Assembly (NCBI GenBank): GCA_964368135.1
Contig: CAYIZI010000001.1
Location: 42,926 to 106,925 of the forward strand
DNA: 64,000 nucleotides
DNA from: an uncultured Candidatus Saccharibacteria bacterium
GTDB taxonomy: Bacteria > Patescibacteriota > Minisyncoccia > 2-02-FULL-40-12
Reading direction: 5' to 3'
The notes under the pieces were generated by a model. It was not told where the DNA came from. It saw only the letters and a program-made list of their open reading frames with translations, and ran no database searches. Below are positions 136 to 59,460 of this stretch, in pieces; position 1 is the stretch's first letter; each line of letters starts with the position of its first letter. A program made the position numbers and the translations under genes.

Positions 136-169
136 TACAAATTCGTAAATTGGAATTCATTCGTAAATT
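136..169 (+). promoter_or_regulatory. Two direct TTCGTAAATT boxes (142-151, 160-169) immediately upstream of the prfA TTG start; a third copy lies at 942-951
   Basis: Exact 10-mer repeated three times within 1 kb, each upstream of a plus-strand gene; contains a TAAAT -10-like core. Confidence 0.3.
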
Positions 170-12497: not shown

Positions 12498-12560
12498 AAA
12501 ATAATCATAACAGATAATCCCGCAAACAAAAAACCCAACTGGGGTTAAAACCAACTGGGT

Positions 12561-40010: not shown

Positions 40011-40019
40011 GATAATTTT

Positions 40020-40961: not shown

Positions 40962-40962
40962 T

Positions 40963-43150: not shown

Positions 43151-43159
43151 ATTTATTTA

Positions 43160-43690: not shown

Positions 43691-43691
43691 A

Positions 43692-44723: not shown

Positions 44724-44725
44724 AA

Positions 44726-45439
44726 TTACCAAACCTTCCAAAGGGCCTGGCCTTTTTGCCAAAGCTCCTCCAGAATATTTTTATCTCTTAGCGTATCCAG
44801 ACACATCCAAAATCCTTTGTGGCGATACGCGGCTAATTTACCGTCTTCGACCAACTGCTTCATTGGTTCTTGTTCAAAAACAGTTTCATCTCCTTGGATG
44901 TAATCAATTACTTTCGGGTCAAGAATAAAAAATCCGCCGTTTATCCACGAACCCCCATTTTTTGGTTTTTCCCTGAAACTTGATACCAATCCATTCTTGC
45001 CCTCAATTTTTAAAATACCGAACCTCCCTTCCGGCTGAACTGCTGTTACGGTGGCTGGTAAATTATGGCCATTATGGAATTCTAAAAGTTTTTTTAAATC
45101 AACATCGGCAACACCGTCGCCATAAGTAAGGAAAAACTGGCCATTACCAAGATAATCTTTTATTCTCTTTATCCTGCCGCCGGTCATGGTTTCCTGTCCG
45201 GTATCAACAATGGTTATATTCCAATTTTCATTATCAATCCCTTTGCTAAAATACTCCTTTATCATGTCGCCTTTGTAGCCGGCACAAATGATAAAGTCGT
45301 TAAAACCCTGGGTTGAAAATATTTTCATAACATGCCAAAGCATCGGTTTGCCGCCGATTTCAACCATTGGCTTAGGCCTGACCGAAGTTTCCTCGGCTAT
45401 CCTGGTGCCATAACCGCCTGCTAAAATTACCACTTTCAT
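44726..45439 (-). CDS. rfbF: Glucose-1-phosphate cytidylyltransferase
   Basis: MKVVILAGGYGTRIAEETSVRPKPMVEIGGKPMLWHVMKIF... Confidence 0.8.
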   Translation of the reverse strand: MKVVILAGGYGTRIAEETSVRPKPMVEIGGKPMLWHVMKIFSTQGFNDFIICAGYKGDMIKEYFSKGIDNENWNITIVDTGQETMTGGRIKRIKDYLGNGQFFLTYGDGVADVDLKKLLEFHNGHNLPATVTAVQPEGRFGILKIEGKNGLVSSFREKPKNGGSWINGGFFILDPKVIDYIQGDETVFEQEPMKQLVEDGKLAAYRHKGFWMCLDTLRDKNILEELWQKGQALWKVW

Positions 45440-45452
45440 ATCATTCATATAG

Positions 45453-46364
45453 TTAATTATTCTTACAAAAATCTTTGACGTAATTTATGTCTTCCTGGGA
45501 CAGCTTCGGCCAATACGAACTCACCAGCCACTTGCCGCCTAACATCACTGAATTACTGTTAAAAGCTTCCTGCGTCTTCAGATTGGACAGACCAATGGCG
45601 TGACCAAAACCGTGAATCATTTCTCTTATCAAGGCGGATTCTATTAATTTCCCTTCATCTGCTAAACTGCCTAAATAAACATTACTGTTGGCTGCATAGT
45701 CAAATAAGGCCGTAAAAATATTCAGCATAAAATGATCCACGGTTCCATTGCTATATATCTTTTGATACGAAACATCAGTATAATCATAATCTTCCCCATT
45801 CTTAAATTTAAAGGCCGGGTCAAGAATAAAGTTAACCGTATTTACGGTTCCTTGGTAATTATTGAATAAATCAATACCCAAAGCATCTTCCCACTGTTTT
45901 TCGGCATAACCGAGAAGCTCGTTAAGCCGCTGGCGGCTATAACCCAGTTCAAATAATCTCACATCAACATTCCCTAATTTGTAGGTTAGTTGAATTGAAC
46001 AATGAGCCGGAGGCGGCAGAGGCGTAGGCGTGGGAGTTGGAGTTGGGGTCGGAGTTGGAGTTGGGGTCGGTTTCGGAACTGGTTTTGGTTTTTGCGTAGA
46101 ACTTGGAGTAGAAACCGGCCCAATCGGCGATTCAGACGGTTCTGACGTAGCCGATGGACTTAAAATAGGAGTCGGCGTCGGAGTTGATTCTTCAAATAAT
46201 TGGGCAATGAGGGCCGCCGGGTTATTATCAGTATTCATTATCTTACTTAAACCAAAAGTAAATCCGACTGAAATAATCAATGCAAAAGCAGGAACTAATA
46301 CAGACAGTGGGATGAAACCTGACTTTATGCTTATTATTTTTTTGTTTTTGTTGGTTTTATTCAT
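45453..46364 (-). CDS. Membrane-anchored secreted protein with a Pro/Thr-repeat linker and a degenerate zincin-like domain
   Basis: N-terminal TM, KPKPVPKPTPTPTPTPTPTPTPTPLPPP linker, C-terminal REMIHGFGHAIGL resembling a metzincin motif without its first His. Confidence 0.5.
   Translation of the reverse strand: MNKTNKNKKIISIKSGFIPLSVLVPAFALIISVGFTFGLSKIMNTDNNPAALIAQLFEESTPTPTPILSPSATSEPSESPIGPVSTPSSTQKPKPVPKPTPTPTPTPTPTPTPTPLPPPAHCSIQLTYKLGNVDVRLFELGYSRQRLNELLGYAEKQWEDALGIDLFNNYQGTVNTVNFILDPAFKFKNGEDYDYTDVSYQKIYSNGTVDHFMLNIFTALFDYAANSNVYLGSLADEGKLIESALIREMIHGFGHAIGLSNLKTQEAFNSNSVMLGGKWLVSSYWPKLSQEDINYVKDFCKNN
46033..46068. repeat. Perfect 18-nt tandem duplication built from GGAGTT/GGGGTC hexamers; encodes the (TP)n linker
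   Basis: ggagttggagttggggtc x2, read directly; coding, not a CRISPR array. Confidence 0.7.
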
Positions 46365-46370
46365 ATTTTT

Positions 46371-49300
46371 TTACTTACTGATTATTGATAAAAACGCCTT
46401 GCTTGTTTTACTCCAGTCAAAATTACTGGCCCATTTTACTGCTTCCTGGCTCATCCGGTCGCGGAGATCCTTGTCTCGAATTATCGTTAAGATACTCTCC
46501 GCGAATGCATCGCTATTGCCGTAAGAAACAAGGCGGCCAGTTTCCATATTTTTCACAGAATCCCTTAAGCCCGGTACGTCAGAAGCCACTATCGGGGTGC
46601 CGCAAGCATTGGCTTCAATCGTGGTAATGCCCCACCCTTCCATAAACGAAGGATTTACAAATACCCAGGCTTTTTGAAAAAGTTCTATTTTCTCTTTTTC
46701 AGAAACCTTTCCTCTAAATACTACTTTGCCGTTAAGATTAAGTTCAGAGGCTAATCTTTTTAACGAATTTTCTTCTTCGCCGCTGCCGACAATGACCAAC
46801 CGGGCATCATCAACTTGTCTTATAACCTTTTCAAAAGCTCTTACTAAAACATCAACCGACTTATAGGCTTTAAGCCTTCCCAAATAAAGAATAGTCGGTT
46901 CCGGACTCTTTCTCCCAAGAGTTAAATTTTTAGAATTGACTCCGGGATGGACTATTTCAATTCCTTTCTTAGTTCCAAGGCCAAAACTCTGAATATCTTT
47001 TTTGCTTGATTCCGAAACCGTAATAAACTTTACATTCCGGTAGACTATGGGCATCAAATCCTTCTCTAAAAATATTGCCAGCTTTGCTAAGGGTTTAGGC
47101 AAAGAATGCCTGAAGACTTCCTGATGGATATGATGGATAAGACAATAAATCGGCTTCCTTGAATAGATGGGCGTAAAAAAAGGAATGCCGTTATGACAAT
47201 CAACTATGATGTCATATTTGCCTCTGAATTGGGTCAGGTAGTAAATAAAAGCCCAGAGGTAAACAAAGTAAAACCCGCCTCTTCTTATGATTTCAACCCC
47301 ATCTATAATTTCTCTTCTCTTTGAATAACTGTCATTGCCGCAAAAAACAGTGACCTGGTGTCCATCCTTGACCCACTGTTTGGCGATTTCGTGGACATAA
47401 AGTTCTGCTCCGCCACCATATATATGCCTTGTGTCTCTCCAGTTAAATATAAGAATCCTCTTGCCGAGCTTCGCCATCGGAGCCTCGGTTTCAATAGGTC
47501 TAAACGCATCTTTCAAATCAATAATGCCCCTCCAGACAAACTTAAGCCTGCCCTCAAGTACGTGGAATAAATAAACCAGGCCCAACCCAAAGATGCTGGC
47601 CCATAAAATAACATTGACTATCTCTTCGACGCTGCCGTGATTTAGGATTATGCCGATAGACATAAACAATGAAGCAGTCATTGAAATAATCGGGAATATA
47701 AATTGCCTTTTAGCCAAATGATAGACGACTATAGAATTTGAAATCGTGAAAACAGTAAGCGCGAGAGTGTAAATATTAAGATAAGGCAGAATGGCCAGCG
47801 TCTTGGAGCCAAAAAGTATCGGCACGGTTAAATTGCCCAGAGGGCCCAAAAAAATAAACCCGGCTAATGACAAAAGGACGGTTGAACCAACCAGCAGCTC
47901 AAATGTCTTTTTAGTATTTCTCTTTAATCCCTCGTCTCGGCCAATCAAAGTAATCATAAATATATTGGGCAGAGAGCCGAGAAAATATATCATCTTGCCG
48001 ACAAGCGATATTAGAGTGTACTCGCCGGCCAAACGCGGCGATAAAAAGTGTTTGACTAAAATAATGTCAATGCTTAAAAATATCGTCGCCGACATTAAAG
48101 TAAGTATTGAGGCGTAGAAAAACCTGCCCGGAAACTTATGGTTTTTAGTCTGAATAAAATCTTCAGAATGCCTTGAAACAGCCAAAACAGAAGCCATTGA
48201 AGCAACCGCTATGGATATCGGAATTGAAAGATAAACTAAATGATTTAACCCATACCAGGCGAAAAGAGCCGCCGCAATAAACTTACTTACTGATTCAAAA
48301 AGAATAACGAAAGCAACACTGGTAAAGTAAAGATTGCCATTAAGAAACCCCCTGTTTGCCGACGCAATCACTCCCAAAGTCAGAACCGGAGTGAACATAA
48401 AAAGGATGGACTGGCTGCTTATGTTAAAGAAATTAGAAAGGAATGAAACTGAAACTATCCACATTACCGATATGCCTAAGGCAATAGGAATTGCTTTGTT
48501 CAAAGTTGATTTGAGAAACGCAAGCGCCGACCCCTCACCCTTTTCAACGGCCAGATGAGCAGTCTTATGGTTTACCGTTGAGGAAACCGCGCCCATAAAT
48601 ATCGCCGCTACTGACCATAAAGTATTAACCAGTATCACTAGACTAAGTTCTTCAAAAGACAAAACCCTTCCCAGGAAAGCGTTAAAAAGAAAATTAAGGA
48701 AATTGGCGAACATCATCGCCGCAATCATAAGCGCCGCTCCCGAAAGAGCATTTTCGGTCAGCGATAACGGCAAAAATTTATTAGTGGTTTTTTTCAGCCA
48801 AGAATCTTTCTTTATAAAATTAAGAGTCAATTCAGGTTTCGGGGCCGGTCCCGATTTTATCGTCCCTAAAACAGGTAAGGGTTTTAATTTCTTTAAATGC
48901 AGGCCGTGCTTGGTCTTTTCCCAGAAATGCGGCTTAATGAAAAGCTGGTAAGTTGCCATTACCGCGGCAATACTCATAAAGAACCAATAGAAAGGTATTA
49001 AAAAGACATATTTTATTATTGGCCAGTGGCCCCTTTTGGCACAGCCGATCATGTAATAGTAAAAATAGAGAAAATTCCCGAAGACCAGAGAAAAAACGGC
49101 GATATAAAAGACCGGGGTCGGATATATTGATTCTATGGTCGGACCGACAACGGAACGCAGGGCGAAATAAGAGATCGTCATAAACCACAAAATTGGATTT
49201 ATAAGCATAAAGACAATTTTGCCGCCGATGTTAAGCTGGAAAAGAAAAGTATGGATGCCGCTTTTTTTCAAAAATTCCATCGGCTTTCTCATATGAACCA

Positions 49301-51047
49301 GATATGTCTGCATATAGCCCTTAATCCACCTTGACCTCTGCCTTATCCAGTTCCAAACCTGACTATTTGCTTCTTCAAGAGTTATTGAATCAATAATCGC
49401 CGTGTTGAAACCCTGTTTAAATAACCGCACCCCCAAGTCGGCGTCTTCGGTAACGTTGAAGGGATCCCAACCCTTAAGATTCCTTAAGTCGGCGGTCCGG
49501 AAATGGTTGCTGGTGCCGCCAAGAGGAATTGAAGTATTAATTGACTGAAGACCCGGCAGAATGATTTCAAACCACAACGAGTACTCGGCCGTAAAAAGCC
49601 GGGTCAAAAGATTTTGATTGGTGTTATAATAATTGAGTTTTGCCTGAAGACATTTAACTTTTTCTGGCACTCTTTGAAAAGCCAAATAAGCTTTCTTAAG
49701 CTGCTGGGGTTCGGGCATATCTTCGGCGTCGTAAACGACAAGATACTCACCCTTGGCTGAATTAAGACCATAATTGCAGGCCTTGGGCTTGGTCTTAGGC
49801 AAAGAGTGAGGAACGATTACTATCCTTACGTAGCTTGGCAAATCTATTGACCTGGCAGTATCTATTGTCTCTAAGTCGTTTTCTTCTAAAAGCAGCTGGA
49901 CATCCAATTTATCCTTAGGCCACTCCAATTTGCTTATTGAATTTAAAAATTTTGGAAGAACCGCTGATTCCCGATAAAGCGGGCAGAGAATCGCATAAAC
50001 CGGCAGAGAACTTTCGTCTATCCGGGAAAGTTCCTCATCAGTAAAACTAAGTTCCGGAGGATTATGCAGACTTTTTGTGATAAGGAATAAATTAAACAAA
50101 ACGTCAAAAAAGTATAGAGAGCTTAAAACAGCCATTAAAGCTATGGCCGTATAGAGCGGGAAAAATAAAAATCCGGCAACAGCCAAAATAACGGATAGAA
50201 ATATTAAAAATTTCTGGCTGGCGGTAAATGTGATTAGGGCCGAGGTTTCACTGTCAAGATTAGAATGAGTAATGAACCTTCTGCCTTTATGGGCCATTCC
50301 GGCGCCGATCATACTTGATTCGTCTTGCGGCGGTATTTGAATCGGCTTTTTCTTTTTTAACTTGTTGGCCAACGCGTTAGTGCCTATTTCCCAACTGGCT
50401 TTTATGACATTGATTTTTGATTCACCGGAATGCCTCTTTTCAAAATCTATATTAACGGTGGCTATTTCATGGCCGGCGTATCTGGCGTTAACCAAGAATT
50501 CCAGATCAAAGGTCCACTGGGACGGATTAACTGCTATTTCCTTGGTTATCTGTTTTTTAAAAACTTTTAACCCTGACTGGACATCGCACTTAAGCCCGTG
50601 AAGAATCCGGCCAAAAACAAAATTAAAACCTTTGCTGGCCAGCTTTCTTAAGGGGCTTATGCCTTTATAACGTCTATTGGCCACAACTACGCCGGCGCCA
50701 TCTCTAATTTTTCTCACCATTTCCGGTATCGCTTCCGGCGGGTACTGCAGGTCAGCGTCAATCATCCCGACAGTGTCATACTTGGCATAATCAAAACCCT
50801 CAAGAATAGAAAAGGCCTTACCCTTTTTGCCTTTCTTCAAATGACAACTAATTGGATATTCGTCGGCCAGATTATTGGCAATCTTAACCGTATTATCGGT
50901 TGAGTGGTCATCTATTGTGACTATTTCATACTCAATACCGCCTTTTTTTAAAGCATTATCAATCCTCTTGACTAACTTCTGGATATTTCCTTCTTCATTA
51001 AAAGTAGGAATAATTATTGATACTTTTTCAGTGTTTTTGGCCTCCAT
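46371..51047 (-). CDS. 1558-aa multi-domain glycan-assembly fusion: GT2 (DPM1-like) + processive QxxRW GT2 + Wzx/MOP-like flippase domain + GT4
   Basis: aa 8-230 GT2 (IIIPTFNEE, DDHSTDN, DADLQYPP); aa ~345-715 cellulose-synthase-like GT2 (DAEDMP, QRSRWIKG, C-terminal TMs); aa ~755-1175 12-14 TM MOP-like; aa ~1195-1558 GT4 (E-x7-E: FMEGWGITTIEANACGTPIV). Confidence 0.75.
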   Translation of the reverse strand: MEAKNTEKVSIIIPTFNEEGNIQKLVKRIDNALKKGGIEYEIVTIDDHSTDNTVKIANNLADEYPISCHLKKGKKGKAFSILEGFDYAKYDTVGMIDADLQYPPEAIPEMVRKIRDGAGVVVANRRYKGISPLRKLASKGFNFVFGRILHGLKCDVQSGLKVFKKQITKEIAVNPSQWTFDLEFLVNARYAGHEIATVNIDFEKRHSGESKINVIKASWEIGTNALANKLKKKKPIQIPPQDESSMIGAGMAHKGRRFITHSNLDSETSALITFTASQKFLIFLSVILAVAGFLFFPLYTAIALMAVLSSLYFFDVLFNLFLITKSLHNPPELSFTDEELSRIDESSLPVYAILCPLYRESAVLPKFLNSISKLEWPKDKLDVQLLLEENDLETIDTARSIDLPSYVRIVIVPHSLPKTKPKACNYGLNSAKGEYLVVYDAEDMPEPQQLKKAYLAFQRVPEKVKCLQAKLNYYNTNQNLLTRLFTAEYSLWFEIILPGLQSINTSIPLGGTSNHFRTADLRNLKGWDPFNVTEDADLGVRLFKQGFNTAIIDSITLEEANSQVWNWIRQRSRWIKGYMQTYLVHMRKPMEFLKKSGIHTFLFQLNIGGKIVFMLINPILWFMTISYFALRSVVGPTIESIYPTPVFYIAVFSLVFGNFLYFYYYMIGCAKRGHWPIIKYVFLIPFYWFFMSIAAVMATYQLFIKPHFWEKTKHGLHLKKLKPLPVLGTIKSGPAPKPELTLNFIKKDSWLKKTTNKFLPLSLTENALSGAALMIAAMMFANFLNFLFNAFLGRVLSFEELSLVILVNTLWSVAAIFMGAVSSTVNHKTAHLAVEKGEGSALAFLKSTLNKAIPIALGISVMWIVSVSFLSNFFNISSQSILFMFTPVLTLGVIASANRGFLNGNLYFTSVAFVILFESVSKFIAAALFAWYGLNHLVYLSIPISIAVASMASVLAVSRHSEDFIQTKNHKFPGRFFYASILTLMSATIFLSIDIILVKHFLSPRLAGEYTLISLVGKMIYFLGSLPNIFMITLIGRDEGLKRNTKKTFELLVGSTVLLSLAGFIFLGPLGNLTVPILFGSKTLAILPYLNIYTLALTVFTISNSIVVYHLAKRQFIFPIISMTASLFMSIGIILNHGSVEEIVNVILWASIFGLGLVYLFHVLEGRLKFVWRGIIDLKDAFRPIETEAPMAKLGKRILIFNWRDTRHIYGGGAELYVHEIAKQWVKDGHQVTVFCGNDSYSKRREIIDGVEIIRRGGFYFVYLWAFIYYLTQFRGKYDIIVDCHNGIPFFTPIYSRKPIYCLIHHIHQEVFRHSLPKPLAKLAIFLEKDLMPIVYRNVKFITVSESSKKDIQSFGLGTKKGIEIVHPGVNSKNLTLGRKSPEPTILYLGRLKAYKSVDVLVRAFEKVIRQVDDARLVIVGSGEEENSLKRLASELNLNGKVVFRGKVSEKEKIELFQKAWVFVNPSFMEGWGITTIEANACGTPIVASDVPGLRDSVKNMETGRLVSYGNSDAFAESILTIIRDKDLRDRMSQEAVKWASNFDWSKTSKAFLSIISK

Positions 51048-52587: not shown

Positions 52588-52630
52588 ATATCTTAGATTA
52601 TACCTATGAAATGGGATACTGAAAATTAGA

Positions 52631-52694
52631 ATCATAAAACCGCCTCTTGGGTGGTTTTATGATTTAGTTTACCCACTCATATATGAGTGAGGGG
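52631..52694 (-). terminator. Twin stem-loops downstream of the major pilin gene
   Basis: atcataaaaccgcc-tcttg-ggtggttttatgat (52631-52663, 14-bp stem with one G-U) then U-rich on the minus strand; second hairpin cactcat-at-atgagtg (52673-52688). Confidence 0.6.
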
Positions 52695-52702
52695 TTGCTC
52701 TC

Positions 52703-53179
52703 TTAACGAGTGACTTCGATTATTTGTCCAAGCTCAGCTGAAGGCGCACTAATTGTAACCCTTCCAGCTGAATCAACTTCTAAATCATAGCCAGTATCGT
52801 CTCCTACTGCTGATGTTGGATCTGTAGGAAATGACGGAACGTATGTTGGTGTAAGGCAAGAAAGATCAATATCTCCTGCCACGGCACCAGAAGTAACAAT
52901 ATCGACTGCCGAACCGGCAGCTGGAAGCGATGGACATGTATATGTAGTGCCGCCGATTGTGAATGAACCGCTGAAAATTCCTTTATTATCAGCAATCCTT
53001 TGGCCAACTGAGTTCAAAATAGTGTTAGCATTACTGGTTCTCTGGGTATTTCTGCCTTGGGCAAACTGTCTGGCTGGGTTTATGGCGATCAAGACAATAG
53101 TTGCTAAAATAGCAATAATCCCGATAACTACCAGAATTTCAATAAGGGTAAAGCCCCTATTTTTTCTTTGATTTTTCAT
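52703..53179 (-). CDS. Type IV major pilin (prepilin with class III signal peptide)
   Basis: MKNQRKNRG|FTLIEILVVIGIIAILATIVLIAI canonical prepilin leader and N-methylation domain. Confidence 0.8.
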   Translation of the reverse strand: MKNQRKNRGFTLIEILVVIGIIAILATIVLIAINPARQFAQGRNTQRTSNANTILNSVGQRIADNKGIFSGSFTIGGTTYTCPSLPAAGSAVDIVTSGAVAGDIDLSCLTPTYVPSFPTDPTSAVGDDTGYDLEVDSAGRVTISAPSAELGQIIEVTR

Positions 53180-53239
53180 AATCTCCTGATTTTTTAAACT
53201 ATATCAATTTATCGACCTGATTTTTAAAGATAAAGAGAG

Positions 53240-53266
53240 GTTATAATGGGATATGGGTCTTGTCAA
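53240..53266 (-). promoter_or_regulatory. Candidate sigma-70-type promoter of the major pilin gene
   Basis: Minus strand TTGACA (53266-53261) - 15 nt - TATAAC (53245-53240), then aggag SD before the ATG at 53179. Confidence 0.4.
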
Positions 53267-53269
53267 TAT

Positions 53270-53719
53270 TTATGGAAAATTTCCTATCTCTTCCCAAGAT
53301 TCAACTTCTATTTTGCCAAATGGTTTTGAAACAATTATTTCAAGATTAGTATAGGAACTTTTATTGCCGTCTTGAGGGTATTTGCCTTGAACTTGGATTG
53401 TCTTAGTCCCAGAGCCGGATATTGAATAAATAATACATGAATCATCACCAACCGGAATAGTTTCGCCAGGCGGCGAAAGCGAGTAATCATTAAATTCGTC
53501 ATCATTTAGCGCCTGTAATTTTAAAATCGCGGTGTCGGCGCAGGCCTCGGCCAAGCCAATGCTTTTTTCCTTAAACTCTGAATCAAGAACATTTATCCTG
53601 GCGAAAAAACTGCGAAAGCCCAAAGCAAAAGTAATAGTCATCAAAATAATGGCAATAATGACCGTAGAAATCAAAGCAATATAGCCGTTTTTATTTCCGG
53701 ATAAATTTGGTGGTCTCAT
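53270..53719 (-). CDS. Pilin-like protein with non-canonical N-terminal hydrophobic segment
   Basis: NKNGYIALISTVIIAIILMTITFALG hydrophobic N-terminus without Glu+5; lies in the pilin gene row. Confidence 0.4.
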   Translation of the reverse strand: MRPPNLSGNKNGYIALISTVIIAIILMTITFALGFRSFFARINVLDSEFKEKSIGLAEACADTAILKLQALNDDEFNDYSLSPPGETIPVGDDSCIIYSISGSGTKTIQVQGKYPQDGNKSSYTNLEIIVSKPFGKIEVESWEEIGNFP

Positions 53720-54176
53720 AATAAAAATCATTTAAGTAAAAGTTGGTCTTGACTGCTGGGGGCTGGCCAGTGGCTGAAGGAGGAATATACTCAAAGCTCA
53801 AAGTGGCGGCTTTTACGCTATCGCTGTCTAAGGCCAAAAAAACTCCTATCCCTGGATCAATCTCAATATTTTCGTTAACCAATCTAAATTTGACTCGTTG
53901 GGATAAACCATATTTATCAACTGACAGTTCATCCCCTTCTGGCGGGATAATTATTGGAGTTGGGTTTGATAAATCTATTCCAGTCAACGCCCAATTTATT
54001 TTCCGCAAAACAAAGTTGGCCTCGTCGCTGATTAAAACCTTAATGTTGGAACGGTCGGTTGCTTCAATAACTGAATAAACCGAAACAATCACTCCGGCCA
54101 TTAATAGAGAAAAAAGAGCTATATATATTAGCACTTCAATAATGGTAAATCCATTTTCGTGACTAAATTTAGACAT
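53691..54176 (-). CDS. Type IV minor pilin (prepilin-type N-terminal cleavage/methylation domain)
   Basis: ENG|FTIIEVLIYIALFSLLMAGV; start trimmed to MSKF at 54176. Confidence 0.65.
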   Translation of the reverse strand: MSKFSHENGFTIIEVLIYIALFSLLMAGVIVSVYSVIEATDRSNIKVLISDEANFVLRKINWALTGIDLSNPTPIIIPPEGDELSVDKYGLSQRVKFRLVNENIEIDPGIGVFLALDSDSVKAATLSFEYIPPSATGQPPAVKTNFYLNDFYYETTKFIRK

Positions 54177-54183
54177 CAGAAAA

Positions 54184-55785
54184 TCAATTGCAAACTGGTG
54201 ATGGTTCAATAATCCGCAGTTTGCTTTGTTGGTTAGTTACTGTGTAGATAACGTCGTTCTCATAAGCAAAGTTTTGCGGGTCTACTGAAAAGTTATAGGG
54301 ACAGGTATCCCATCTCTCAATATTGGCCGGATCACTTACATCTAAAACAAGAAAGGGGTCGTTGGGATCTCTTGTTGTAACAAAAGCTAACTGTCCTGAA
54401 ACTTTAATGCCGGTAATGCCCGCACCCTGGTTATAATTAAAAAAATCATTAAAGTTTACTGACCCAGGAGCAGAAGATAAGTCGTTAGTATCAACAACGT
54501 AAAAATCTCGGTCATTCCCTGGATTTGAACGTCCTATTCCAAGATAAATTTTATTTCCAATAACATATAAATCTCTCCCGTCTTTTGAACTTGCCGAACC
54601 GTCGGCTCTTTCCGCATCAAAGGTACCGGCAATAGTTATATTTAAAGGATTGGCTATATTAAGAACGATAATTTCCTCGTTATTAGAAGAAGTGGCAAGA
54701 TAGGCCCTATCCTCTCTTACTTCAATATCATTGATATTATGATCTACTTGGGTAGAGCCTGTATTCCCAAGGTGAACGGGGTTTGTTGGATCAGTTACAT
54801 CAAAAATGTGAAACTCCGAACCGCCAACTCTATGGGTACCTATATAAATGCGGTTATTGTAATAAGCAATGCTTCGTCCGCCGGGACAAGTAAAATTACA
54901 AGTTCCACTTACTCCGGGTAAAGACACAGAAGCAATTTGAATAGGCGCCGCGGGGTCAGTCACATCAATTACCTGGAGTTGGCCGCTGGCTTTTTCATTG
55001 CCGCTGCCACTGCCGTCATCCGGATCGTAAAAATCTCCGTGGATACTGGCCGCAAAAATATAACGTTTATTTAACGATTGAAAATCAACGGCCACTAAAT
55101 CAACAATCCCGTTTAGTTTTTTACCTGGTCCCCAATCCACCCCGATACTCCCTAAAAAAACTGGGTTTGAAGTATTAGCCGCATCATAAATAAATAGGTC
55201 ATCTAAATTTTCATTAGAATCATAGACCCCTAAGTAAACAATCTTATTCAGGACGGCAATACTTTCACCGTTAACAGTATTTATAATAATATTGTCGTGA
55301 TTGGTTACGGGATTCCTCCAATTATCATTTGACGGAGATATTATGGAACAATTACTGCCAGCATCAATAAAAGCTTTTAGACTGCCGATAATACTAGAAA
55401 TACTTATTGATTGAGGCCTGTTTTCCACATCCCAATCAATAGTACTTTTAATTTCTTTGACACAGGGAGAGATATCTAATACTTCTAAAGTTTTAGTGTA
55501 AATGTCAGTCGTAGTCGGAGTTGTAGAAATAATGGAGTTAAATTCTCCGACTGTACCACGAGATTGAGCTCGAGTATTCTCAAGTTCCTCTTGAGCAAAA
55601 TACAAAGCTTCCTGATTTGTCTCGGTGTCTATTTCGGTTGACTGACCGCCAAACAAAACCATTATCACCGCGGAAATCGTCAAAACGAAAATAAACATCG
55701 CAATCATAATTTCCATTGTGGTCAGACCGCTTTCTAACCCGCTCTGGCGCTTAAGTTTCTTAGTAATTGATCCGGCCTTGTTCAT
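54184..55785 (-). CDS. Large pilin-like protein: prepilin N-terminus fused to an LVIVD-repeat beta-propeller-like domain (candidate pilus tip adhesin)
   Basis: SG|LTTMEIMIAMFIFVLTI prepilin signal with Glu+5; repeated (D/N)(I/V)xV.... segments (AYLATSSNNEEIIVLNIANP, LAFVTTRDPNDPFLVLDVSDP) typical of LVIVD propellers; 533 aa. Confidence 0.6.
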   Translation of the reverse strand: MNKAGSITKKLKRQSGLESGLTTMEIMIAMFIFVLTISAVIMVLFGGQSTEIDTETNQEALYFAQEELENTRAQSRGTVGEFNSIISTTPTTTDIYTKTLEVLDISPCVKEIKSTIDWDVENRPQSISISSIIGSLKAFIDAGSNCSIISPSNDNWRNPVTNHDNIIINTVNGESIAVLNKIVYLGVYDSNENLDDLFIYDAANTSNPVFLGSIGVDWGPGKKLNGIVDLVAVDFQSLNKRYIFAASIHGDFYDPDDGSGSGNEKASGQLQVIDVTDPAAPIQIASVSLPGVSGTCNFTCPGGRSIAYYNNRIYIGTHRVGGSEFHIFDVTDPTNPVHLGNTGSTQVDHNINDIEVREDRAYLATSSNNEEIIVLNIANPLNITIAGTFDAERADGSASSKDGRDLYVIGNKIYLGIGRSNPGNDRDFYVVDTNDLSSAPGSVNFNDFFNYNQGAGITGIKVSGQLAFVTTRDPNDPFLVLDVSDPANIERWDTCPYNFSVDPQNFAYENDVIYTVTNQQSKLRIIEPSPVCN

Positions 55786-56233
55786 TGATGGTTATGGTTA
55801 AGGGAGGTTTACCCACGCTAATCAGAGTAATCTCAAGCGGCGCCGCCGCTACATTCCCAGTCAGCTGCTCAAAATTTATAATCCCGGACCAGGCTATCCC
55901 TAATCTTTCTATCGGGATACTTTCATTGCTTGGATCATTTGGAACGTAAACTGAACCTTCAAAAATTACAAGCTCTTTTTTAGCGTCATCATAATAAACG
56001 CTGTAAGACGACTGATTAATATTGCTGACGGCCTGATTCCTGGCTTTCTGCAAAATACTTATCACTATATCTTTGTCGTAATTAAAAGAATAGGTTCGGT
56101 AAAAATCCATACTCAAAAAAAGGCCGATGCCCATTAGCAGAACCAAAATACCGATGGCAACCAGAATTTCAATAATAGAGAATCCGTTACTACGCCGGCC
56201 GGCTAAATTAAGGCGAGAGGTTCCTGGTAATTT
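55760..56233 (-). CDS. Type IV minor pilin
   Basis: SNG|FSIIEILVAIGILVLLMGIGL; start trimmed to MKLPG at 56233. Confidence 0.65.
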   Translation of the reverse strand, partial: KLPGTSRLNLAGRRSNGFSIIEILVAIGILVLLMGIGLFLSMDFYRTYSFNYDKDIVISILQKARNQAVSNINQSSYSVYYDDAKKELVIFEGSVYVPNDPSNESIPIERLGIAWSGIINFEQLTGNVAAAPLEITLISVGKPPLTITINEQGRINY

Positions 56234-57278
56234 CATAAATCGGGGTAATGATTGAAACAGCAATAAAGCCGACAATCAAACCCATAAACACCATCAAAGC
56301 CGGCTCAAGGATCGTAGATAAATTCTTAGTCAGTTCGTCCATCTCGGCCTCATACATTTCGGCCAGATAAAGTAAAGTTTCATCCAAGCGGCCGGTTGAT
56401 TCGCCGATTTCAATCAAATGAGTCAAAATATGCGGGAAAAGGTCTGGCCTTCTTTCCATCTGACTGACTATTTTTTCGCCCTTAACCACGCACTTTGAAA
56501 TCTTCACAAGTTCGTTTCGGTAGACCAGATTAGTGGTCGTCTGCGAGGCAATTAAAAAAGCATTAATCACTCTGATGTCGCTTTTGATCAAAATTCCAAG
56601 GGTCCGGCAAATATTGGCCAAGTGATAATTCTTGAATATCGGACCAATCAAAGGCATTTTAAAGCTGGCCAGGTGCAGAAGATAGCGAAACTTATCCGAA
56701 GTCCTAAAAAAAACAATTAAACCAACCGCCAAAACAATAATCCCGGCAACTAAAAACAACCCATAGGCCTTCAAAAAATCAACGCTGGCAATCAGGGCCC
56801 GGGTAGTAAGGGGCAGGTTCACATTCAAACTGGCGAAAATCGGCAAAATCTTCGGGAAAATATAAAGAGTTAAAAGGCCGGCCAAACCTAAAGTAGCAAT
56901 AATTATAAAAATCGGATAAACCAGCGCGCCCATCACTTTACGCTGCAGGGCCTGCTTTTTCTTCATCTCATCGGCCAAATAGTTCAGGTTCTCGTCCAGA
57001 GTACCGCTCTCTTCGCCGACCCGAATCAAATTAATGGCCAGCTGGTCAAAGTTATGCCGAAACTTAGCCAAACTGCTTGAAAGATACTGACCGTTGGAAA
57101 CGTCTTTAATCACCTGGTCAAGAACCAATGACTTGGCGCCCGATGGACTTTGTTTTCTTAAAATATTTAAACTCTGGAGCAAGGGCACGCCGGCCTTAAC
57201 CAAAAAAGACAGCCGCTTGGCAAAAAGGGTTTTCTCTTTTACGGAAATTCTGGTAAATAACTCTCTTAATCTACTCAT
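56208..57278 (-). CDS. pilC: Type IV pilus assembly platform protein PilC (GspF family)
   Basis: Two T2SSF repeats, three TM helices; 356 aa. Confidence 0.8.
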   Translation of the reverse strand: MSRLRELFTRISVKEKTLFAKRLSFLVKAGVPLLQSLNILRKQSPSGAKSLVLDQVIKDVSNGQYLSSSLAKFRHNFDQLAINLIRVGEESGTLDENLNYLADEMKKKQALQRKVMGALVYPIFIIIATLGLAGLLTLYIFPKILPIFASLNVNLPLTTRALIASVDFLKAYGLFLVAGIIVLAVGLIVFFRTSDKFRYLLHLASFKMPLIGPIFKNYHLANICRTLGILIKSDIRVINAFLIASQTTTNLVYRNELVKISKCVVKGEKIVSQMERRPDLFPHILTHLIEIGESTGRLDETLLYLAEMYEAEMDELTKNLSTILEPALMVFMGLIVGFIAVSIITPIYEITRNLSP

Positions 57279-58503
57279 TGATCACTCTCAAAACTTCCTC
57301 CAGAGTGGTAATGCCTTCTTTGGCTTTCCTGATGCCGTCCTCAACTATAGTGGTCATCCCATTGCCGGAAGCGATTAACTTAATCTCATTGGCCGAAGCC
57401 CTCCTTAAAAAAGCTTCTCTGACCATATTGTCTACAACCATCACTTCAAATATGCCGACTCGGCCCTGAAAACCGGTCTCGCCGCATTTCTCACAGCCCC
57501 TGCCGTAATAAAACTGCCAGTTGGAATCTGAACCCAAAACCGAATTCTGGAAAAAATTTTCCAAGCTCTTCTTTTCGGCGTCGGTCAGCTTTCTTAAAGT
57601 TTTGCATTTGGGGCAAATTTTCCTGACCAATCTCTGGGCAATGGCCAAGTTGACCGTTGAAGCAACCAGGTACGGCTCAACTTTCATATCTAATAATCTG
57701 GGCAAAGTGGTGGCCGCGTCATTGGTATGCAAAGTGGACAAAAGCAGGTGGCCGGTTAAAGCGGTGTTGACAGCTAAGGCCGCGGTCTCAACATCTCTGA
57801 TTTCGCCAACCATTATTATATCGGGGTCCTGCCGTAAAATTGACCTTAGTCCGTTGGCAAAGTTTAAGCCGACCCGGGAATTAACCTGAATCTGTTCAAT
57901 TCCTTCAACCGCGTATTCAATCGGGTCCTCCACCGTGACAATTGAAACATCTTTGTTGTTTAAAAATTTTAAAACGGTGTAAAGAGTGGTGGTTTTGCCA
58001 GATCCGGTCGGTCCGGTGGCTAAAATCATGCCGTGACTTTTTTTGGCGGCCCTCAAAACCTTTTCCTTGTCTGACGGACTAAAGCCAAGTTTATCCAAAG
58101 TGTATTCTTCTTCCTTATCTGATAAAAGACGCAAAACCGCGTTCTCGCCGTAATAGGTTGGAGCTACGGAAACGCGAATATCAATCGGCGCCTGCCCGTC
58201 AAAAGCAATACTGAACCGGCCGTCTTGAGCAGTCTGGTGTTCGTCAGTCCTTAAGTTTGATAAAATTTTAATTCTGGAAACCACCTCTGATTTGATTTCT
58301 CTTGGAAAAGTAAAAAAATCCTGCAAAACGCCGTCAATTCTAAACCTGATTCTGACTCCCTTTGTGCCCGGGTCAATATGAATATCCGAAGCCCGCGAGT
58401 TGTGGGCGTATTCTATTAAGTTGTCCACCAGGCTGATTAAGGAAATCTGTTCAGAGTTTTGCTCAATTTCCCGCTCAATTTTATTTCTTAGTTCTGTTGA
58501 CAT
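57271..58503 (-). CDS. pilB: Type IV pilus assembly ATPase PilB/GspE (no N1 domain)
   Basis: Walker A GPTGSGKTTTL, Asp/His boxes, tetracysteine CPKC...CEKC zinc motif characteristic of PilB/GspE rather than PilT; 410 aa. Confidence 0.8.
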   Translation of the reverse strand: MSTELRNKIEREIEQNSEQISLISLVDNLIEYAHNSRASDIHIDPGTKGVRIRFRIDGVLQDFFTFPREIKSEVVSRIKILSNLRTDEHQTAQDGRFSIAFDGQAPIDIRVSVAPTYYGENAVLRLLSDKEEEYTLDKLGFSPSDKEKVLRAAKKSHGMILATGPTGSGKTTTLYTVLKFLNNKDVSIVTVEDPIEYAVEGIEQIQVNSRVGLNFANGLRSILRQDPDIIMVGEIRDVETAALAVNTALTGHLLLSTLHTNDAATTLPRLLDMKVEPYLVASTVNLAIAQRLVRKICPKCKTLRKLTDAEKKSLENFFQNSVLGSDSNWQFYYGRGCEKCGETGFQGRVGIFEVMVVDNMVREAFLRRASANEIKLIASGNGMTTIVEDGIRKAKEGITTLEEVLRVINE

Positions 58504-58583
58504 TAGAGAAAAATTAATCTTAATCGTATAATCTTATATCTTTCCTTTGAATATAGTCAACAAAAAAAGCCCAAAGAGCCATG

Positions 58584-58614: not shown

Positions 58615-59181
58615 GTATAGGCCAATAAACGCAGCCAGGGTGTTAAAAACGATATTGCCTAAAGTCATCGGAATCATCAGCCGCCAGTAAGGATAGTGAA
58701 TAAAACCAAGGGGCATGACCACCAAATCATCAGGCAGAGGGATAAAAGCGCCGTAGCTGAAAATGGCCAGACTGGCCAGCCACTTGGGATGAGACAAAGA
58801 CCATTCATAAGCCCGGTCAATGGTTTTTTGAATTCTTGAAGGGATAATTTCCCGGCCATGATATGCAATAACATAAGAAGTTGAATCACCCAAGAAAAGG
58901 CCGATGCCGGCCACAAAACCCAAAAGAAATGGGTTTAACCCGCCGGCGGCAAAAGTCATCACAAAGAGATAATAAGGAATCGGAACAAAGGTTGAGATGC
59001 CGCCCAAGAAAGCCAAAACAAAGGTAATCAAATAGCCGTTTCGGACGCCCAGAATCTCAATAATGTCAGCCGGCGGAATCCGGTAAATAAAAACTGTCCA
59101 GGCGACAAAAAGAGCAATCAGGATTAAAAAAGGAAATTGGGCTTTACTAACTATCCCCCGCACCTTTTCTGAATAGGTCAA
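58597..59181 (-). CDS. DedA/VTT-domain family membrane protein (YqaA-like)
   Basis: GLFLGDSTSYVIAYHG DedA-type motif, 5-6 TM; both its TTG start region and its last codons are encoded by copies of the 31-nt repeat. Confidence 0.55.
   Translation of the reverse strand: MTYSEKVRGIVSKAQFPFLILIALFVAWTVFIYRIPPADIIEILGVRNGYLITFVLAFLGGISTFVPIPYYLFVMTFAAGGLNPFLLGFVAGIGLFLGDSTSYVIAYHGREIIPSRIQKTIDRAYEWSLSHPKWLASLAIFSYGAFIPLPDDLVVMPLGFIHYPYWRLMIPMTLGNIVFNTLAAFIGLYTPHLF
59155..59174 (-). repeat. Inverted partial copy B of the 31-nt repeat (ccccgcaccttttctgaat), at the GIY-YIG stop / DedA start
   Basis: Reverse complement matches attcagaaaaggtgcgggg of copies A and C (19-20 nt). Confidence 0.6.
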
Positions 59182-59435
59182 GACGACAAACTGCCGAGTA
59201 TTCTTCTCTTAAGCTGAGAATATACTTTACCGAACTGTTTCAGTTTTTTCTCACGGTTTCTGACGTCTTGACCGTTTAGATAACCTTCACAATAAACTAA
59301 CTTCCAAGGAATGAAAGCTTTAGTCGACCGATTATATCCTAAATTATGTTCTCTTATCCTTTTTAAAATATTAGTTGTTATGCCAATATATAATTTCTTG
59401 TTTTTATCGCTTTTCAATAAATAGACATAGAACAT
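59178..59435 (-). CDS. Small GIY-YIG nuclease-family protein (COG2827/YhbQ-like)
   Basis: MFYVYLLKSDKNKKLYIGITTNILKRIREHNLGYNRSTKAFIPWKLVYCE; 85 aa; the N-terminal 110 codons of the tracked ORF overlap the upstream gene out of frame and were trimmed. Confidence 0.7.
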   Translation of the reverse strand: MFYVYLLKSDKNKKLYIGITTNILKRIREHNLGYNRSTKAFIPWKLVYCEGYLNGQDVRNREKKLKQFGKVYSQLKRRILGSLSS

Positions 59436-59460
59436 AATAAATTCAGAAAAGGTGCGGGGT
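59430..59460 (+). repeat. 31-nt repeat copy C, between the membrane-protein stop (59464) and the GIY-YIG start (59435)
   Basis: Identical to 58584-58614. Confidence 0.7.

What the first reader, a model, noticed from the sequence alone, without database searches (positions are those of the whole stretch)
52703..58503. Minimal type IV pilus operon (PilB-PilC-four pilins-major pilin) without PilM/N/O/Q, PilD or PilT in the window
The gene order on the minus strand is pilB (lacking the N1 domain), pilC, minor pilin, pilin-propeller fusion, minor pilin, non-canonical pilin-like protein, then the major pilin. The major pilin has its own strong promoter-like sequence and twin terminators. This is the streamlined arrangement expected for a cell-wall-simple organism. 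The prepilin peptidase and any retraction ATPase must be encoded elsewhere. The next gene downstream of pilB is a DedA-like protein, not pilD.
Basis: partly seen in the sequence, partly recalled or inferred. Interest (0 to 1): 0.5.

Follow-up and report, generated by a model that had tools for sequence, protein, structure and literature searches.

The report
Minimal pilus cassette with propeller-tipped pilin
This is a real seven-gene type IV pilus operon from an ultra-small groundwater bacterium (Candidate Phyla Radiation); it is a conserved, stripped-down pilus kit whose tip subunits carry adhesin-like domains, so it is an interesting variant of a known machine but not a new kind of system.

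Summary
On the minus strand, 58503-52703 encodes:
- a short PilB-type ATPase with no N1 domain
- a PilC platform
- three pilins with canonical class III signals, one fused to a seven-bladed LVIVD beta-propeller
- a pilin-fold protein lacking Glu5
- a major pilin set off by a 90-nt spacer and followed by two stable hairpins

No pilD, pilT, pilM/N/O or secretin occurs in about 81 kb of the source contig. That contig comes from a Hainich groundwater 0.1-um metagenome, and the closest relatives are Ca. Yanofskybacteria.

The same ordered cassette recurs in 50 of 63 sufficiently long related loci across Parcubacteria-type lineages, never next to pilMNO, pilD or pilT. Its make-up (ATPase, platform, four H-I-J-K-like minor pilins, major pilin, peptidase elsewhere) equals the "minimalistic" Com pilus of Firmicutes. 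The proteins themselves are PilB/GspE- and T4a-like and fail the ComG thresholds.

The propeller-bearing minor pilin parallels PilX2 of Saccharibacteria TM7x, a host-binding adhesin. In relatives, the Glu5-less cap pilin gains vWA and SpaA modules.

Most likely this is an adhesive, tip-modular type IV filament. Whether PilMNO, PilT and PilD exist elsewhere in the genome could not be tested. I rate it a new variant of a known kind, of moderate interest.

The parts
58531..58580 (-). Operon boundary. A terminator-like hairpin plus T-run (58580-58568) follows the upstream VTT/DedA-like gene. A promoter-like TTGACT-18-TAAGAT (58560-58531) lies ahead of pilB.
   Evidence: Consensus scan; sequence read. 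These are consensus matches only, and their number is not above the shuffled expectation.
57271..58503 (-). PilB/GspE-type extension ATPase, 410 aa, made of the N2 and C-terminal ATPase domains only. It has no N1/T2SSE_N domain. Walker A, Asp box, Walker B, His box and the tetracysteine Zn site (C297, C300, C337, C340) are all present.
   Evidence: Orthologs are 56-70% identical and have the same short N-terminus.
56208..57278 (-). PilC/GspF-type platform protein, 356 aa, with two T2SSF repeats. It overlaps pilB by 8 nt.
55760..56236 (-). Minor pilin 1 (H position), 158 aa. The leader MKLPGTSRLNLAGRRSNG is followed by FSIIE, giving Glu at +5. The longest possible ORF runs to 56275.
   Evidence: N_methyl scores 23.9 bits against a 21.2 cutoff. 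Weak ComGD hit. Gene call. Motif. The profile matches only the alpha1 helix of T4a pilins.
54184..55785 (-). Modular minor pilin (I position), 533 aa. It has a class III signal (G20|LTTME), a pilin alpha1 helix (18-75), a small pilin sheet (91-134) and a seven-bladed LVIVD beta-propeller (about 170-527). Six cysteines.
53691..54176 (-). Minor pilin 3 (J position), 161 aa. The leader MSKFSHENG is followed by FTIIE. The longest ORF runs to 54209.
   Evidence: N_methyl 28.7 bits. Weak GspI and GspJ hits..
53270..53719 (-). Cap-type (K position) pilin-fold protein, 149 aa. The leader MRPPNLSGNKNG is followed by YIALIS, with no Glu at +5. C60 and C95 are invariant. The longest ORF runs to 53731.
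   Evidence: No Pfam or NCBIfam hit. None of the 37 homologs has Glu5. The AF2 model (pLDDT 88.6) shows helix 10-70 plus a five-stranded sheet. The family has 1,472 representatives at E <= 1e-10. Foldseek against PDB gave no significant match.
53180..53269 (-). A 90-nt spacer before the major pilin gene. It contains TTGACA (53266-53261), a 15-nt gap, TATAAC (53245-53240), and an AGGAGA ribosome-binding site just 5' of the ATG.
   Evidence: Sequence read. This is the only junction in the operon that is not overlapping or tight. In 41 colinear relatives the same junction has a median gap of +94 nt and is at least 40 nt in 85% of them, against -4 to -29 nt at all other junctions. Strong consensus hexamers are not conserved in relatives.
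52703..53179 (-). Major pilin, 158 aa. The leader MKNQRKNRG is followed by FTLIE. The mature protein is 149 aa with C82 and C108. Gly/Ala/Ser/Thr content is 38.6%, against 24-30% for the other six proteins.
   Evidence: N_methyl 37.8 bits. TIGR02532 33.3 bits against a 16.3 cutoff.. Median identity to orthologs is 51%, much higher than for the minor pilins. The profile matches the alpha1 helices of T4a pilins.
52630..52691 (-). Two stem-loops downstream of the major pilin, at 52691-52672 and 52664-52630. The second ends in UUUUAU and overlaps the annotated ATG (52635) of the DUF192 gene.
   Evidence: RNA fold: MFE -28.5 kcal/mol, z = -5.37, 0 of 200 shuffles fold as well.

Best explanation
The locus is a self-contained, minimal type IV filament cassette typical of Parcubacteria/Paceibacteria-type CPR bacteria.

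Shown:
- It encodes an extension ATPase reduced to its N2 and ATPase domains, a PilC platform, four minor pilins and one major pilin.
- This ordered set is conserved across many lineages without any adjacent PilM/N/O, PilT, PilD or secretin.

Inferred mechanism:
- A prepilin peptidase encoded elsewhere cleaves the five class III leaders.
- The four minor pilins pre-assemble in the membrane into an H-I-J-K-type priming complex.
- The Glu5-less last minor pilin (p6) caps this complex, and the second minor pilin displays a disulfide-rich seven-bladed beta-propeller.
- The PilB hexamer and PilC then polymerise the major pilin beneath this complex. The major pilin is over-produced from its own promoter region, and its transcript ends at the downstream hairpins.
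- The result is a pilus whose tip carries the propeller.

Inferred function: adhesion to a host cell or surface. The fast-evolving, domain-swapping tip subunits set the specificity, and the conserved shaft pilin and motor are reused. No dedicated retraction ATPase belongs to the cassette.
For: Components and motifs:
- The ATPase has all catalytic boxes and the Zn site. It scores as PilB/GspE (359 bits to Geobacter PilB), not PilT (134 bits).

Tip complex:
- There are four minor pilin genes in a row, and the last one lacks Glu5 in all 37 family members.
- These are the hallmarks of the H-I-J-K/ComGD-GG tip complex described in PMC10790768.
- p6 is predicted to have a pilin lollipop fold.
- Weak N-terminal profile hits follow the H-I-J order: ComGD for pilin 1, ComGE/PilV for the fusion, GspI/GspJ for pilin 3.

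Propeller pilin:
- The model is confident, with a pilin helix, a sheet and a seven-bladed propeller.
- Glu5 is conserved. The six cysteines point to an extracellular protein.
- The propeller hits LVIVD and choice-of-anchor B, both families of surface proteins.

Conservation:
- 41 of 82 related loci are fully colinear and 9 more nearly so, giving 50 of the 63 loci with enough downstream sequence.
- No flanking family recurs in more than 14 loci, and none of the recurrent ones checked is a pilus assembly gene.
- No locus has a second T2SSE ATPase.

Adhesin signature:
- Median identity to the window is 61% for PilB, 47% for PilC and 51% for the major pilin, but only 28-34% for the four minor pilins.
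- In 9 loci the K-position pilin is enlarged to 826-1497 aa. All four of those scanned carry vWA, and two of them also carry SpaA-type domains.

Major pilin:
- It has the highest Gly/Ala/Ser/Thr content (38.6%).
- A conserved spacer precedes it, and stable hairpins follow it.

Precedents:
- The TM7x minor pilin PilX2 carries a heptabladed propeller and is needed for host binding (PMC11623550).
- The Com pilus shows that core components alone suffice for assembly and that the peptidase can be a distant loner (PMC10790768).
Against: - Nothing here is experimental.
- p6 has no significant match to any solved pilin.
- The H-I-J assignments rest on gene order and sub-threshold N-terminal hits.
- No prepilin peptidase was found in 81 kb, and the rest of the genome could not be searched.
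- Published CPR pili, including the propeller-bearing T4P-2 of TM7x, have PilM/N/O (PMC6744442, PMC11623550). This cassette may therefore depend on PilMNO encoded elsewhere rather than being truly minimal.
- A role in DNA uptake cannot be excluded.
Confidence: 0.6

Rival explanations
1. It is the pilin and motor half of a conventional CPR T4aP. PilM/N/O, PilD and PilT are encoded at another locus and are required for assembly and retraction. On this reading the pilus is a retractile twitching and attachment pilus, and 'minimal' is only an artefact of gene scattering.
For: - Surveys report PilM, PilN, PilO, PilT and PilD as widespread in CPR. PilC, PilM and PilO were found in about 88% of small-celled Hainich Patescibacteria MAGs (PMC6744442, PMC8672522).
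- In TM7x, the pilins of T4P-2 sit in a different locus from its machinery (PMC11623550).
- The ATPase and the pilin N-termini are T4a/GspE-like rather than ComG-like.
Against: - In none of 82 related loci is pilM/N/O, pilD or a second ATPase within 10 kb.
- A second cassette type in the same lineages is equally devoid of them.
- The cassette's PilB lacks N1.
- Tight conservation of exactly the Com-like core set suggests a self-sufficient module.
Confidence: 0.22
2. It is a competence (DNA-uptake) pilus analogous to ComG. It captures extracellular DNA for ComEC-dependent import, which nucleotide-auxotrophic CPR bacteria need.
For: - Its composition is identical to the Com pilus: ATPase, platform, five pilins, peptidase elsewhere, no PilT (PMC10790768).
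- CPR are rich in competence genes (PMC6744442).
- dprA lies in the same window, at 25967-27103.
Against: - The proteins score below the ComGA, ComGB and ComGC thresholds and score better as GspE/PilB/GspF.
- The gene order differs from comG.
- No competence gene recurs next to the cassette in 82 loci, and dprA is 26 kb away.
- The tip modules (propeller, vWA, SpaA) are adhesin-type.
- In TM7x, pilus mutants kept wild-type competence (PMC11623550).
Confidence: 0.12
3. It is a T2SS-like pseudopilus (endopilus) that pushes proteins through the cell envelope rather than forming a surface pilus.
For: - The best curated-model scores are to GspE and GspF.
- There are four minor (pseudo)pilins with a Glu5-less K-type member.
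Against: - There is no secretin, GspC, GspL or GspM here or in any related locus.
- CPR lack an outer membrane (PMC6744442).
- A 38.6% Gly/Ala/Ser/Thr major pilin and bulky tip adhesin domains fit an exposed filament.
Confidence: 0.04

Closest known systems
Com pilus of Firmicutes (ComGA-ComGG plus ComC), the 'minimalistic' type 4 filament (PMC10790768)
   Same: - A seven-gene operon: extension ATPase without N1, platform, one major pilin and four minor pilins.
- The last minor pilin lacks Glu5.
- No PilMNO and no PilT.
- The prepilin peptidase is encoded away from the operon.
- The host is a monoderm.
   Different: - The proteins are not ComG orthologs. ComGA scores 251 against a cutoff of 300, ComGB 139 against 240, and ComGC 21 against 75. 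GspE, PilB and GspF models score higher.
- The major pilin is the last gene, behind its own spacer, not the third gene.
- One minor pilin carries a 360-residue beta-propeller.
- The pilin N-termini resemble T4a pilins.
- The system occurs in CPR, not Firmicutes.
- A DNA-uptake role is not indicated.
T4P-2 of Saccharibacteria Nanosynbacter lyticus TM7x, with its PilX2 minor pilin (PMC11623550)
   Same: - A CPR type IV pilus with five pilins.
- One of them is a large minor pilin carrying a seven-bladed beta-propeller, proposed as the tip adhesin.
- No dedicated PilT.
- A small, highly expressed major pilin with high Gly/Ala/Ser/Thr content.
   Different: - TM7x T4P-2 has PilM2/N2/O2, and its pilins sit in a separate locus.
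- The PilX2 propeller is RCC1-type, and PilX2 lacks a predicted class III signal.
- Here the propeller is LVIVD-type, on a pilin with a canonical G|LTTME signal, and everything is in one operon.
Canonical T4aP (PilBCD, PilMNOPQ, PilT; FimU-PilVWX minor pilins plus PilY1)
   Same: - A PilB/PilC motor and T4a-like pilin N-termini with short leaders.
- A four-minor-pilin priming set.
- A beta-propeller adhesin associated with the tip.
   Different: - No PilMNOPQ or PilT in the cassette.
- PilB lacks N1 and scores below the TIGR02538 cutoff.
- The propeller is fused to a pilin instead of being a separate PilY1 protein, and it shows no specific PilY1 similarity.
Modular minor pilins of Streptococcus sanguinis T4P (for example PilB with a grafted vWA module; PMC8179133)
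   Same: A type IV pilin scaffold with a bulky adhesin module grafted on its C-terminus. vWA modules occur on the K-position pilin of relatives.
   Different: In the window the grafted module is a beta-propeller. The S. sanguinis system also has PilMNO and PilT.

Membership tests
Type IV filament superfamily (core machinery) | Hexameric extension ATPase of the T2SSE family with Walker A/B, Asp and His boxes | tested here: met
   PF00437, E = 8e-123. All motifs found. 359 bits to the solved Geobacter PilB.
Type IV filament superfamily (core machinery) | Polytopic platform protein with two T2SSF repeats | tested here: met
   PF00482, two stretches, E = 4.8e-51.
Type IV filament superfamily (core machinery) | Pilins with a class III signal peptide (G-1, hydrophobic +1, Glu+5, hydrophobic alpha1N) | tested here: met
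   N_methyl scores above cutoff for three pilins. The motif is found in four proteins. The fifth protein has the motif without Glu5.
Type IV filament superfamily (core machinery) | Prepilin peptidase (Peptidase_A24) | tested here: not met
   Absent from contig positions 9.6-91 kb and from the recurrent flanking families checked in 82 related loci. The rest of the genome could not be searched, so this shows only that it is not linked to the operon.
Type IVa pilus (T4aP) | PilM/PilN/PilO alignment subcomplex (plus PilP/PilQ in diderms) | tested here: not met
   None in the window or the flanking 81 kb. None is among the recurrent flanking families checked in 82 related loci. Presence elsewhere in the genome was not testable.
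Type IVa pilus (T4aP) | PilT retraction ATPase | tested here: not met
   tblastn with PilB finds no paralog in the window. No related locus has a second T2SSE ORF.
Type IVa pilus (T4aP) | PilB equivalog (TIGR02538), including the N-terminal N1/MshEN region | tested here: not met
   487 bits against a cutoff of 675.65, and only model positions 169-563 are matched. Orthologs have either no N-terminal domain or a receiver domain in its place.
Com pilus (ComG) | Operon of ATPase, platform and five pilins with no other assembly genes; peptidase unlinked | tested here: met
   Gene content. Conserved in 50 of 63 informative loci. Definition taken from PMC10790768.
Com pilus (ComG) | Orthology to ComGA, ComGB and ComGC (NCBIfam equivalog cutoffs) | tested here: not met
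   ComGA 251.3 against 300. ComGB 138.6 against 240. ComGC 20.9 against 75.
Com pilus (ComG) | Major pilin with an all-helical globular head, encoded third in the operon | tested here: inconclusive
   Gene order is not met, since the major pilin is last.
H-I-J-K minor-pilin tip complex | Four consecutive minor pilin genes, the last lacking Glu5 | tested here: met
   Criterion taken from PMC10790768.
H-I-J-K minor-pilin tip complex | The four proteins form a complex capped by K | not testable with these tools
   No multimer prediction was available. The p6 monomer has a pilin fold but no significant PDB match.
Type II secretion system | Secretin plus the GspC/L/M assembly platform | tested here: not met
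   None in 81 kb, and none among the recurrent flanking families checked in related loci. GspE scores 509 bits against a cutoff of 630.
PilY1/PilC-type tip adhesin | C-terminal beta-propeller specifically similar to PilY1, on a non-pilin protein | tested here: not met
TM7x PilX2-type propeller pilin | Minor pilin with a C-terminal heptabladed propeller | tested here: met
TM7x PilX2-type propeller pilin | RCC1-repeat propeller / sequence orthology to PilX2 | tested here: not met
   Pfam finds LVIVD and Beta_propel, and no RCC1 hit was returned. A direct comparison with the PilX2 sequence was not possible.

The most novel reading that the evidence does not exclude
Parcubacteria-type CPR bacteria carry a widespread, self-sufficient type IV pilus that works without PilMNO. 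It would be a second natural 'core-only' filament besides the Firmicute Com pilus, but built from T4a/GspE-like parts. Its tip complex would act as a plug-in adhesin platform: a propeller on the I subunit, and vWA/SpaA modules on the Glu5-less K subunit. That platform would determine which host or surface each ultra-small bacterium can attach to.
Probability: 0.3. Interest if true: 0.6.

Novelty: new variant of a known kind. Interest (0 to 1): 0.4.

Why it matters
CPR bacteria make up a large share of bacterial diversity. Those that have been cultivated live attached to other cells. How the environmental lineages (Parcubacteria and relatives) attach is unknown, and their pilus genes are mostly annotated as hypothetical.

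This cassette offers a compact, recurring and easily recognised unit. It contains about 1,500 diverged clusters of the cap pilin alone, a conserved motor and shaft, and rapidly diversifying tip modules. That makes host-specificity hypotheses testable.

If the cassette really functions without PilMNO, it would also provide a second minimal model for how type IV filaments assemble. This model would be built from T4a-like proteins, complementing the Com pilus.

Tried and rejected
- Using the fusion-protein alignments (58 and 12 sequences) to find related loci failed because no stretch was conserved enough. I used a three-sequence PilB alignment instead. That consumed the only genome-contig scan, so whole-genome searches for pilD, pilT and pilM were no longer possible.
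- A look-up of window ORF 1025-1675 found nothing on record.
- The promoter/terminator consensus scan gave counts no higher than shuffled sequence. A search for a conserved strong sigma-70 consensus before the major pilin in relatives found only 8 of 58 sites with at least 10 of 12 matches. The 'own promoter' idea therefore rests on the conserved spacer, not on a conserved motif.
- Foldseek of the p6 model against PDB gave no significant hit (best E = 0.02, NTF2-like).
- Profile searches of the major pilin, pilin 1 and pilin 3 against PDB matched only the N-terminal helix, so they could not assign H, I or J identities.
- A relaxed Pfam scan of the unannotated membrane proteins, looking for a divergent prepilin peptidase, was negative.
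- There are no tRNA genes or Rfam families in the window.
- Literature searches for an LVIVD or propeller pilin in Patescibacteria returned only the TM7x study.
- I considered that the long PilB ORFs in some relatives carry N1. They carry a response-regulator receiver domain, or nothing.

Full report
**What is in the sequence**

ORF listing and domain scans confirm seven co-directional genes on the minus strand between 58503 and 52703.
- Gene 1 (57271-58503, 410 aa) is a T2SSE ATPase (E = 8e-123).
  - It aligns to curated PilB and GspE models only from model positions 169 and 93 onward. It aligns to solved Geobacter PilB residues 193-583.
  - It therefore consists of the N2 and ATPase domains only. 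The N1 region is absent, and the ORF cannot be extended.
  - Walker A, Asp box, Walker B, His box and the tetracysteine zinc site are intact.
  - It scores 359 bits to PilB structures against about 134 bits to PilT, so it is an extension motor.
- Gene 2 (56208-57278) is a PilC/GspF platform with two T2SSF repeats.
- Genes 3, 5 and 7 pass the Pfam N_methyl threshold.
- A six-frame motif search finds exactly four class III signals in the whole 64-kb window, all of them in this operon.
- Using the gene callers' starts, the leaders and mature N-termini are:
  - MKLPGTSRLNLAGRRSNG|FSIIE (pilin 1)
  - ...GLESG|LTTME (the 533-aa protein)
  - MSKFSHENG|FTIIE (pilin 3)
  - MKNQRKNRG|FTLIE (major pilin)
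  - MRPPNLSGNKNG|YIALI (sixth protein, no Glu at +5)

**Where it comes from**

- The exact proteins are found on a 126,877-bp contig from a Hainich groundwater 0.1-um-filter metagenome (ENA ERZ1292643).
- The nearest named relatives of the 533-aa protein (62-66% identity) and of PilB (70%) are Candidatus Yanofskybacteria.

**What is not there**

- tblastn with PilB finds no second ATPase in the window.
- Walking the contig gave precomputed Pfam annotation for every called gene from 9.6 to 91 kb. There is no Peptidase_A24, PilM, PilN, PilO, secretin or second T2SSE.
- A relaxed scan of the unannotated membrane proteins was also negative.
It lies upstream of pilB, not downstream, and is separated from it by a terminator-like hairpin and a promoter-like site.

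**The propeller pilin**

- The 533-aa protein has 152 detectable homologs. Nearly all are from Patescibacteria and nearly all are annotated as hypothetical.
- An AlphaFold2 model built on 58 sequences is confident (pLDDT 88.6, pTM 0.86). It shows a 58-residue pilin alpha1 helix, a small pilin sheet, and then 27-28 strands forming a propeller.
- PilY1 does not appear in either list, so the fold is generic and no ligand can be read from it.
- Glu at +5 is conserved in at least 90% of family members. The protein has six cysteines. Its propeller hits LVIVD and choice-of-anchor B, both families of surface proteins.

**The sixth protein (p6)**

- It has no Pfam or NCBIfam match. Its 37 closest homologs share G|[Y/F][I/V/M]AL.S, two invariant cysteines, and never a Glu at +5.
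- AlphaFold2 (pLDDT 88.6) predicts a pilin lollipop: helix 10-70 followed by a five-stranded sheet.
- Foldseek finds no significant solved relative.
- A profile search of 1.84 billion cluster representatives finds 1,472 family members at E <= 1e-10, mostly 125-145 aa. This is a large, unnamed family.
- The literature on T2SS, T4aP and Com pili (PMC10790768) describes four minor pilins encoded in a row that form an H-J-I-K tip complex. The last-encoded subunit lacks Glu5 because it caps the filament. The arrangement here fits that rule exactly.
- Sub-threshold N-terminal hits follow the expected order: ComGD for pilin 1, ComGE/PilV for the fusion, GspI/GspJ for pilin 3. I treat these only as weak support.

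**Conservation**

- A PilB-based scan of one genome per GTDB species returned 80 loci with 57-70% identical PilB.
  - By record title, the lineages include Yanofsky-, Doudna-, Sung-, Taylor-, Nomura-, Kaiser-, Jorgensen-, Harrison-, Wolfe-, Lipton- and Colwellbacteria, plus Paceibacteria and Minisyncoccia.
  - Two further loci came from contig look-ups.
- I classified the ORFs of all 82 loci with phmmer.
  - 41 loci have all seven genes in the same order.
  - 9 more have the cassette with one member undetected or displaced.
  - 19 are cut by contig ends. Nearly all of those that reach past pilC are consistent as far as they go.
  - 12 carry a second cassette type, and one is ambiguous.
  - So 50 of the 63 loci with enough downstream sequence carry this cassette.
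- The second cassette type has a PilB that in the examined cases is fused to a receiver domain, then PilC, large pilins and a related major pilin. It likewise lacks PilMNO.
- Clustering all 1,228 flanking ORFs shows no non-cassette family in more than 14 loci.
  - The recurrent families are a PaaX-like regulator, a histidine kinase next to the receiver-PilB loci, and housekeeping genes.
  - None of the ten representatives scanned is a pilus assembly protein.
- No locus has a second T2SSE ORF.
- Among the PilB proteins examined, none has the canonical N1 domain. They have nothing, or a receiver domain, in its place.

**Evolutionary pattern**

- Median identity to the window is 61% for PilB, 47% for PilC and 51% for the major pilin. 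It is only 28-34% for the four minor pilins.
- In nine loci the K-position protein is enlarged to 826-1497 aa. All four scanned carry von Willebrand A domains, and two of them also carry SpaA-type domains.
- A conserved motor and shaft combined with fast-evolving, module-swapping tip subunits is the signature expected of an adhesin platform.

**Expression signals**

- Within the operon all junctions overlap or are within 7 nt, except p6 to the major pilin, which is 90 nt.
- Across 41 colinear relatives that junction has a median of +94 nt and is at least 40 nt in 85% of them. Every other junction has a median of -4 to -29 nt.
- In the window the spacer holds a perfect TTGACA, a 15-nt gap, TATAAC, and an AGGAGA ribosome-binding site.
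- The spacing is sub-optimal. The consensus scan is not enriched over shuffles, and strong hexamers are not conserved in relatives.
- Downstream of the major pilin, two hairpins fold far better than shuffled controls (z = -5.4). The second ends in a U-run but overlaps the next gene's annotated start codon.
- The major pilin also has the highest Gly/Ala/Ser/Thr content (38.6% against 24-30%), the criterion used for TM7x and Pseudomonas major pilins (PMC11623550).
- Separate over-expression of the shaft subunit is therefore plausible. It is supported mainly by the conserved spacer.

**Comparison with known systems**

- By composition, the cassette equals the Com pilus. That is the 'minimalistic' type 4 filament with eight components, whose peptidase gene is a distant loner (PMC10790768).
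- By sequence it is not a Com system. The ComGA, ComGB and ComGC models score below threshold, while GspE, PilB and GspF score higher, though also below their equivalog cutoffs.
  - The pilin N-termini match T4a pilins.
  - The gene order differs.
- Published CPR pili are described as PilB, PilT, PilC, PilM, PilN, PilO and PilD, often co-localised, without PilQ (PMC6744442).
- The best-studied case, Saccharibacteria TM7x, has two systems that both include PilMNO (PMC11623550).
  - Its T4P-2 has a minor pilin, PilX2, with a heptabladed RCC1 propeller that is needed for host binding.
  - That is the closest functional precedent for the fusion here. The propeller type, the signal peptide and the locus organisation all differ.
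- I found no paper describing an LVIVD-propeller pilin or this cassette.

**Verdict**

The operon is real and minimal as a locus, but the missing PilMNO is a property of this conserved cassette type, not a general consequence of a simple envelope.
- The most likely function is an adhesive type IV filament with a modular tip (confidence about 0.6).
- The main uncertainty is whether the cassette borrows PilMNO or PilT from elsewhere.
- It is a new variant of a known kind, of moderate interest.

Noticed in passing
window 59178-59438 (-): A small uncalled GIY-YIG nuclease ORF (86 aa, Pfam E = 9e-15) sits between the DedA-like gene and the DUF5671 gene. GIY-YIG modules also sit inside the cassette in relatives. 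The L010 fusion ortholog (624 aa, P0006) carries PF01541, and L009 has a 260-aa GIY-YIG ORF at 12079-12861 that also scores as p6. This suggests mobile endonuclease genes move through these loci.
   Followed up: partly
window 169-906 (+): The release factor 1 gene is only about 237-245 aa. It matches RF1 models from position 101 of 347 onward. rpmE ends 67 nt upstream on the source contig. The N-terminal domain 1 therefore appears to be missing.
   Followed up: partly
L038 9476-11215; L050 9437-11176; L061 2474-4159; L064 1706-3466: In a subset of related loci PilB carries an N-terminal response-regulator receiver domain in place of N1. A 7TM histidine kinase is often upstream (L038 3848-5485). 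This suggests phosphorelay control of pilus extension in some lineages.
   Followed up: partly
L022, L030, L036, L040, L043, L048, L049, L058, L087 (K-position gene): The Glu5-less cap pilin is enlarged to 826-1497 aa in these nine loci. All four scanned (L022, L040, L043, L058) contain von Willebrand A domains, and L040 and L058 also contain SpaA-type prealbumin domains.
   Followed up: partly
L034 15406-15984 and 13 other loci; also L008 13175-13642 and L009 6305-6844: A PaaX_M (Cas2-like domain) regulator-type gene is the only non-pilus gene that recurs next to the cassette. It is sometimes inserted between the cap pilin and the major pilin. It is absent from the window.
   Followed up: no
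window 46371-51047 (-): A 1558-aa single ORF fuses several glycosyltransferase domains (GT2, GT2_3, GT4/GT1) with a long polytopic membrane region. It sits at the head of a sugar-nucleotide and glycosyltransferase gene cluster (38757-51047).
   Followed up: no
window 25967-27103 (-): The DNA-processing gene dprA lies in the same window, about 26 kb from the pilus operon. No comEC or comEA was seen in the 81 kb inspected.
   Followed up: no
L084 (JAUYPG010000027.1); many CAY*/CAZ* loci: One cassette-bearing contig is deposited as 'Nanoarchaeota archaeon', and many are deposited as 'uncultured Candidatus Saccharibacteria'. Given their PilB identity and synteny with Parcubacteria-type loci, these labels look like mis-binning or generic naming.
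   Followed up: no
window 52630-52664 (-): The second hairpin after the major pilin encloses the annotated ATG (52635) and a GAGG just upstream of the DUF192 gene. Either the true start of that gene is the downstream Met17 (MKILLL...), or the hairpin also gates its translation.
   Followed up: no
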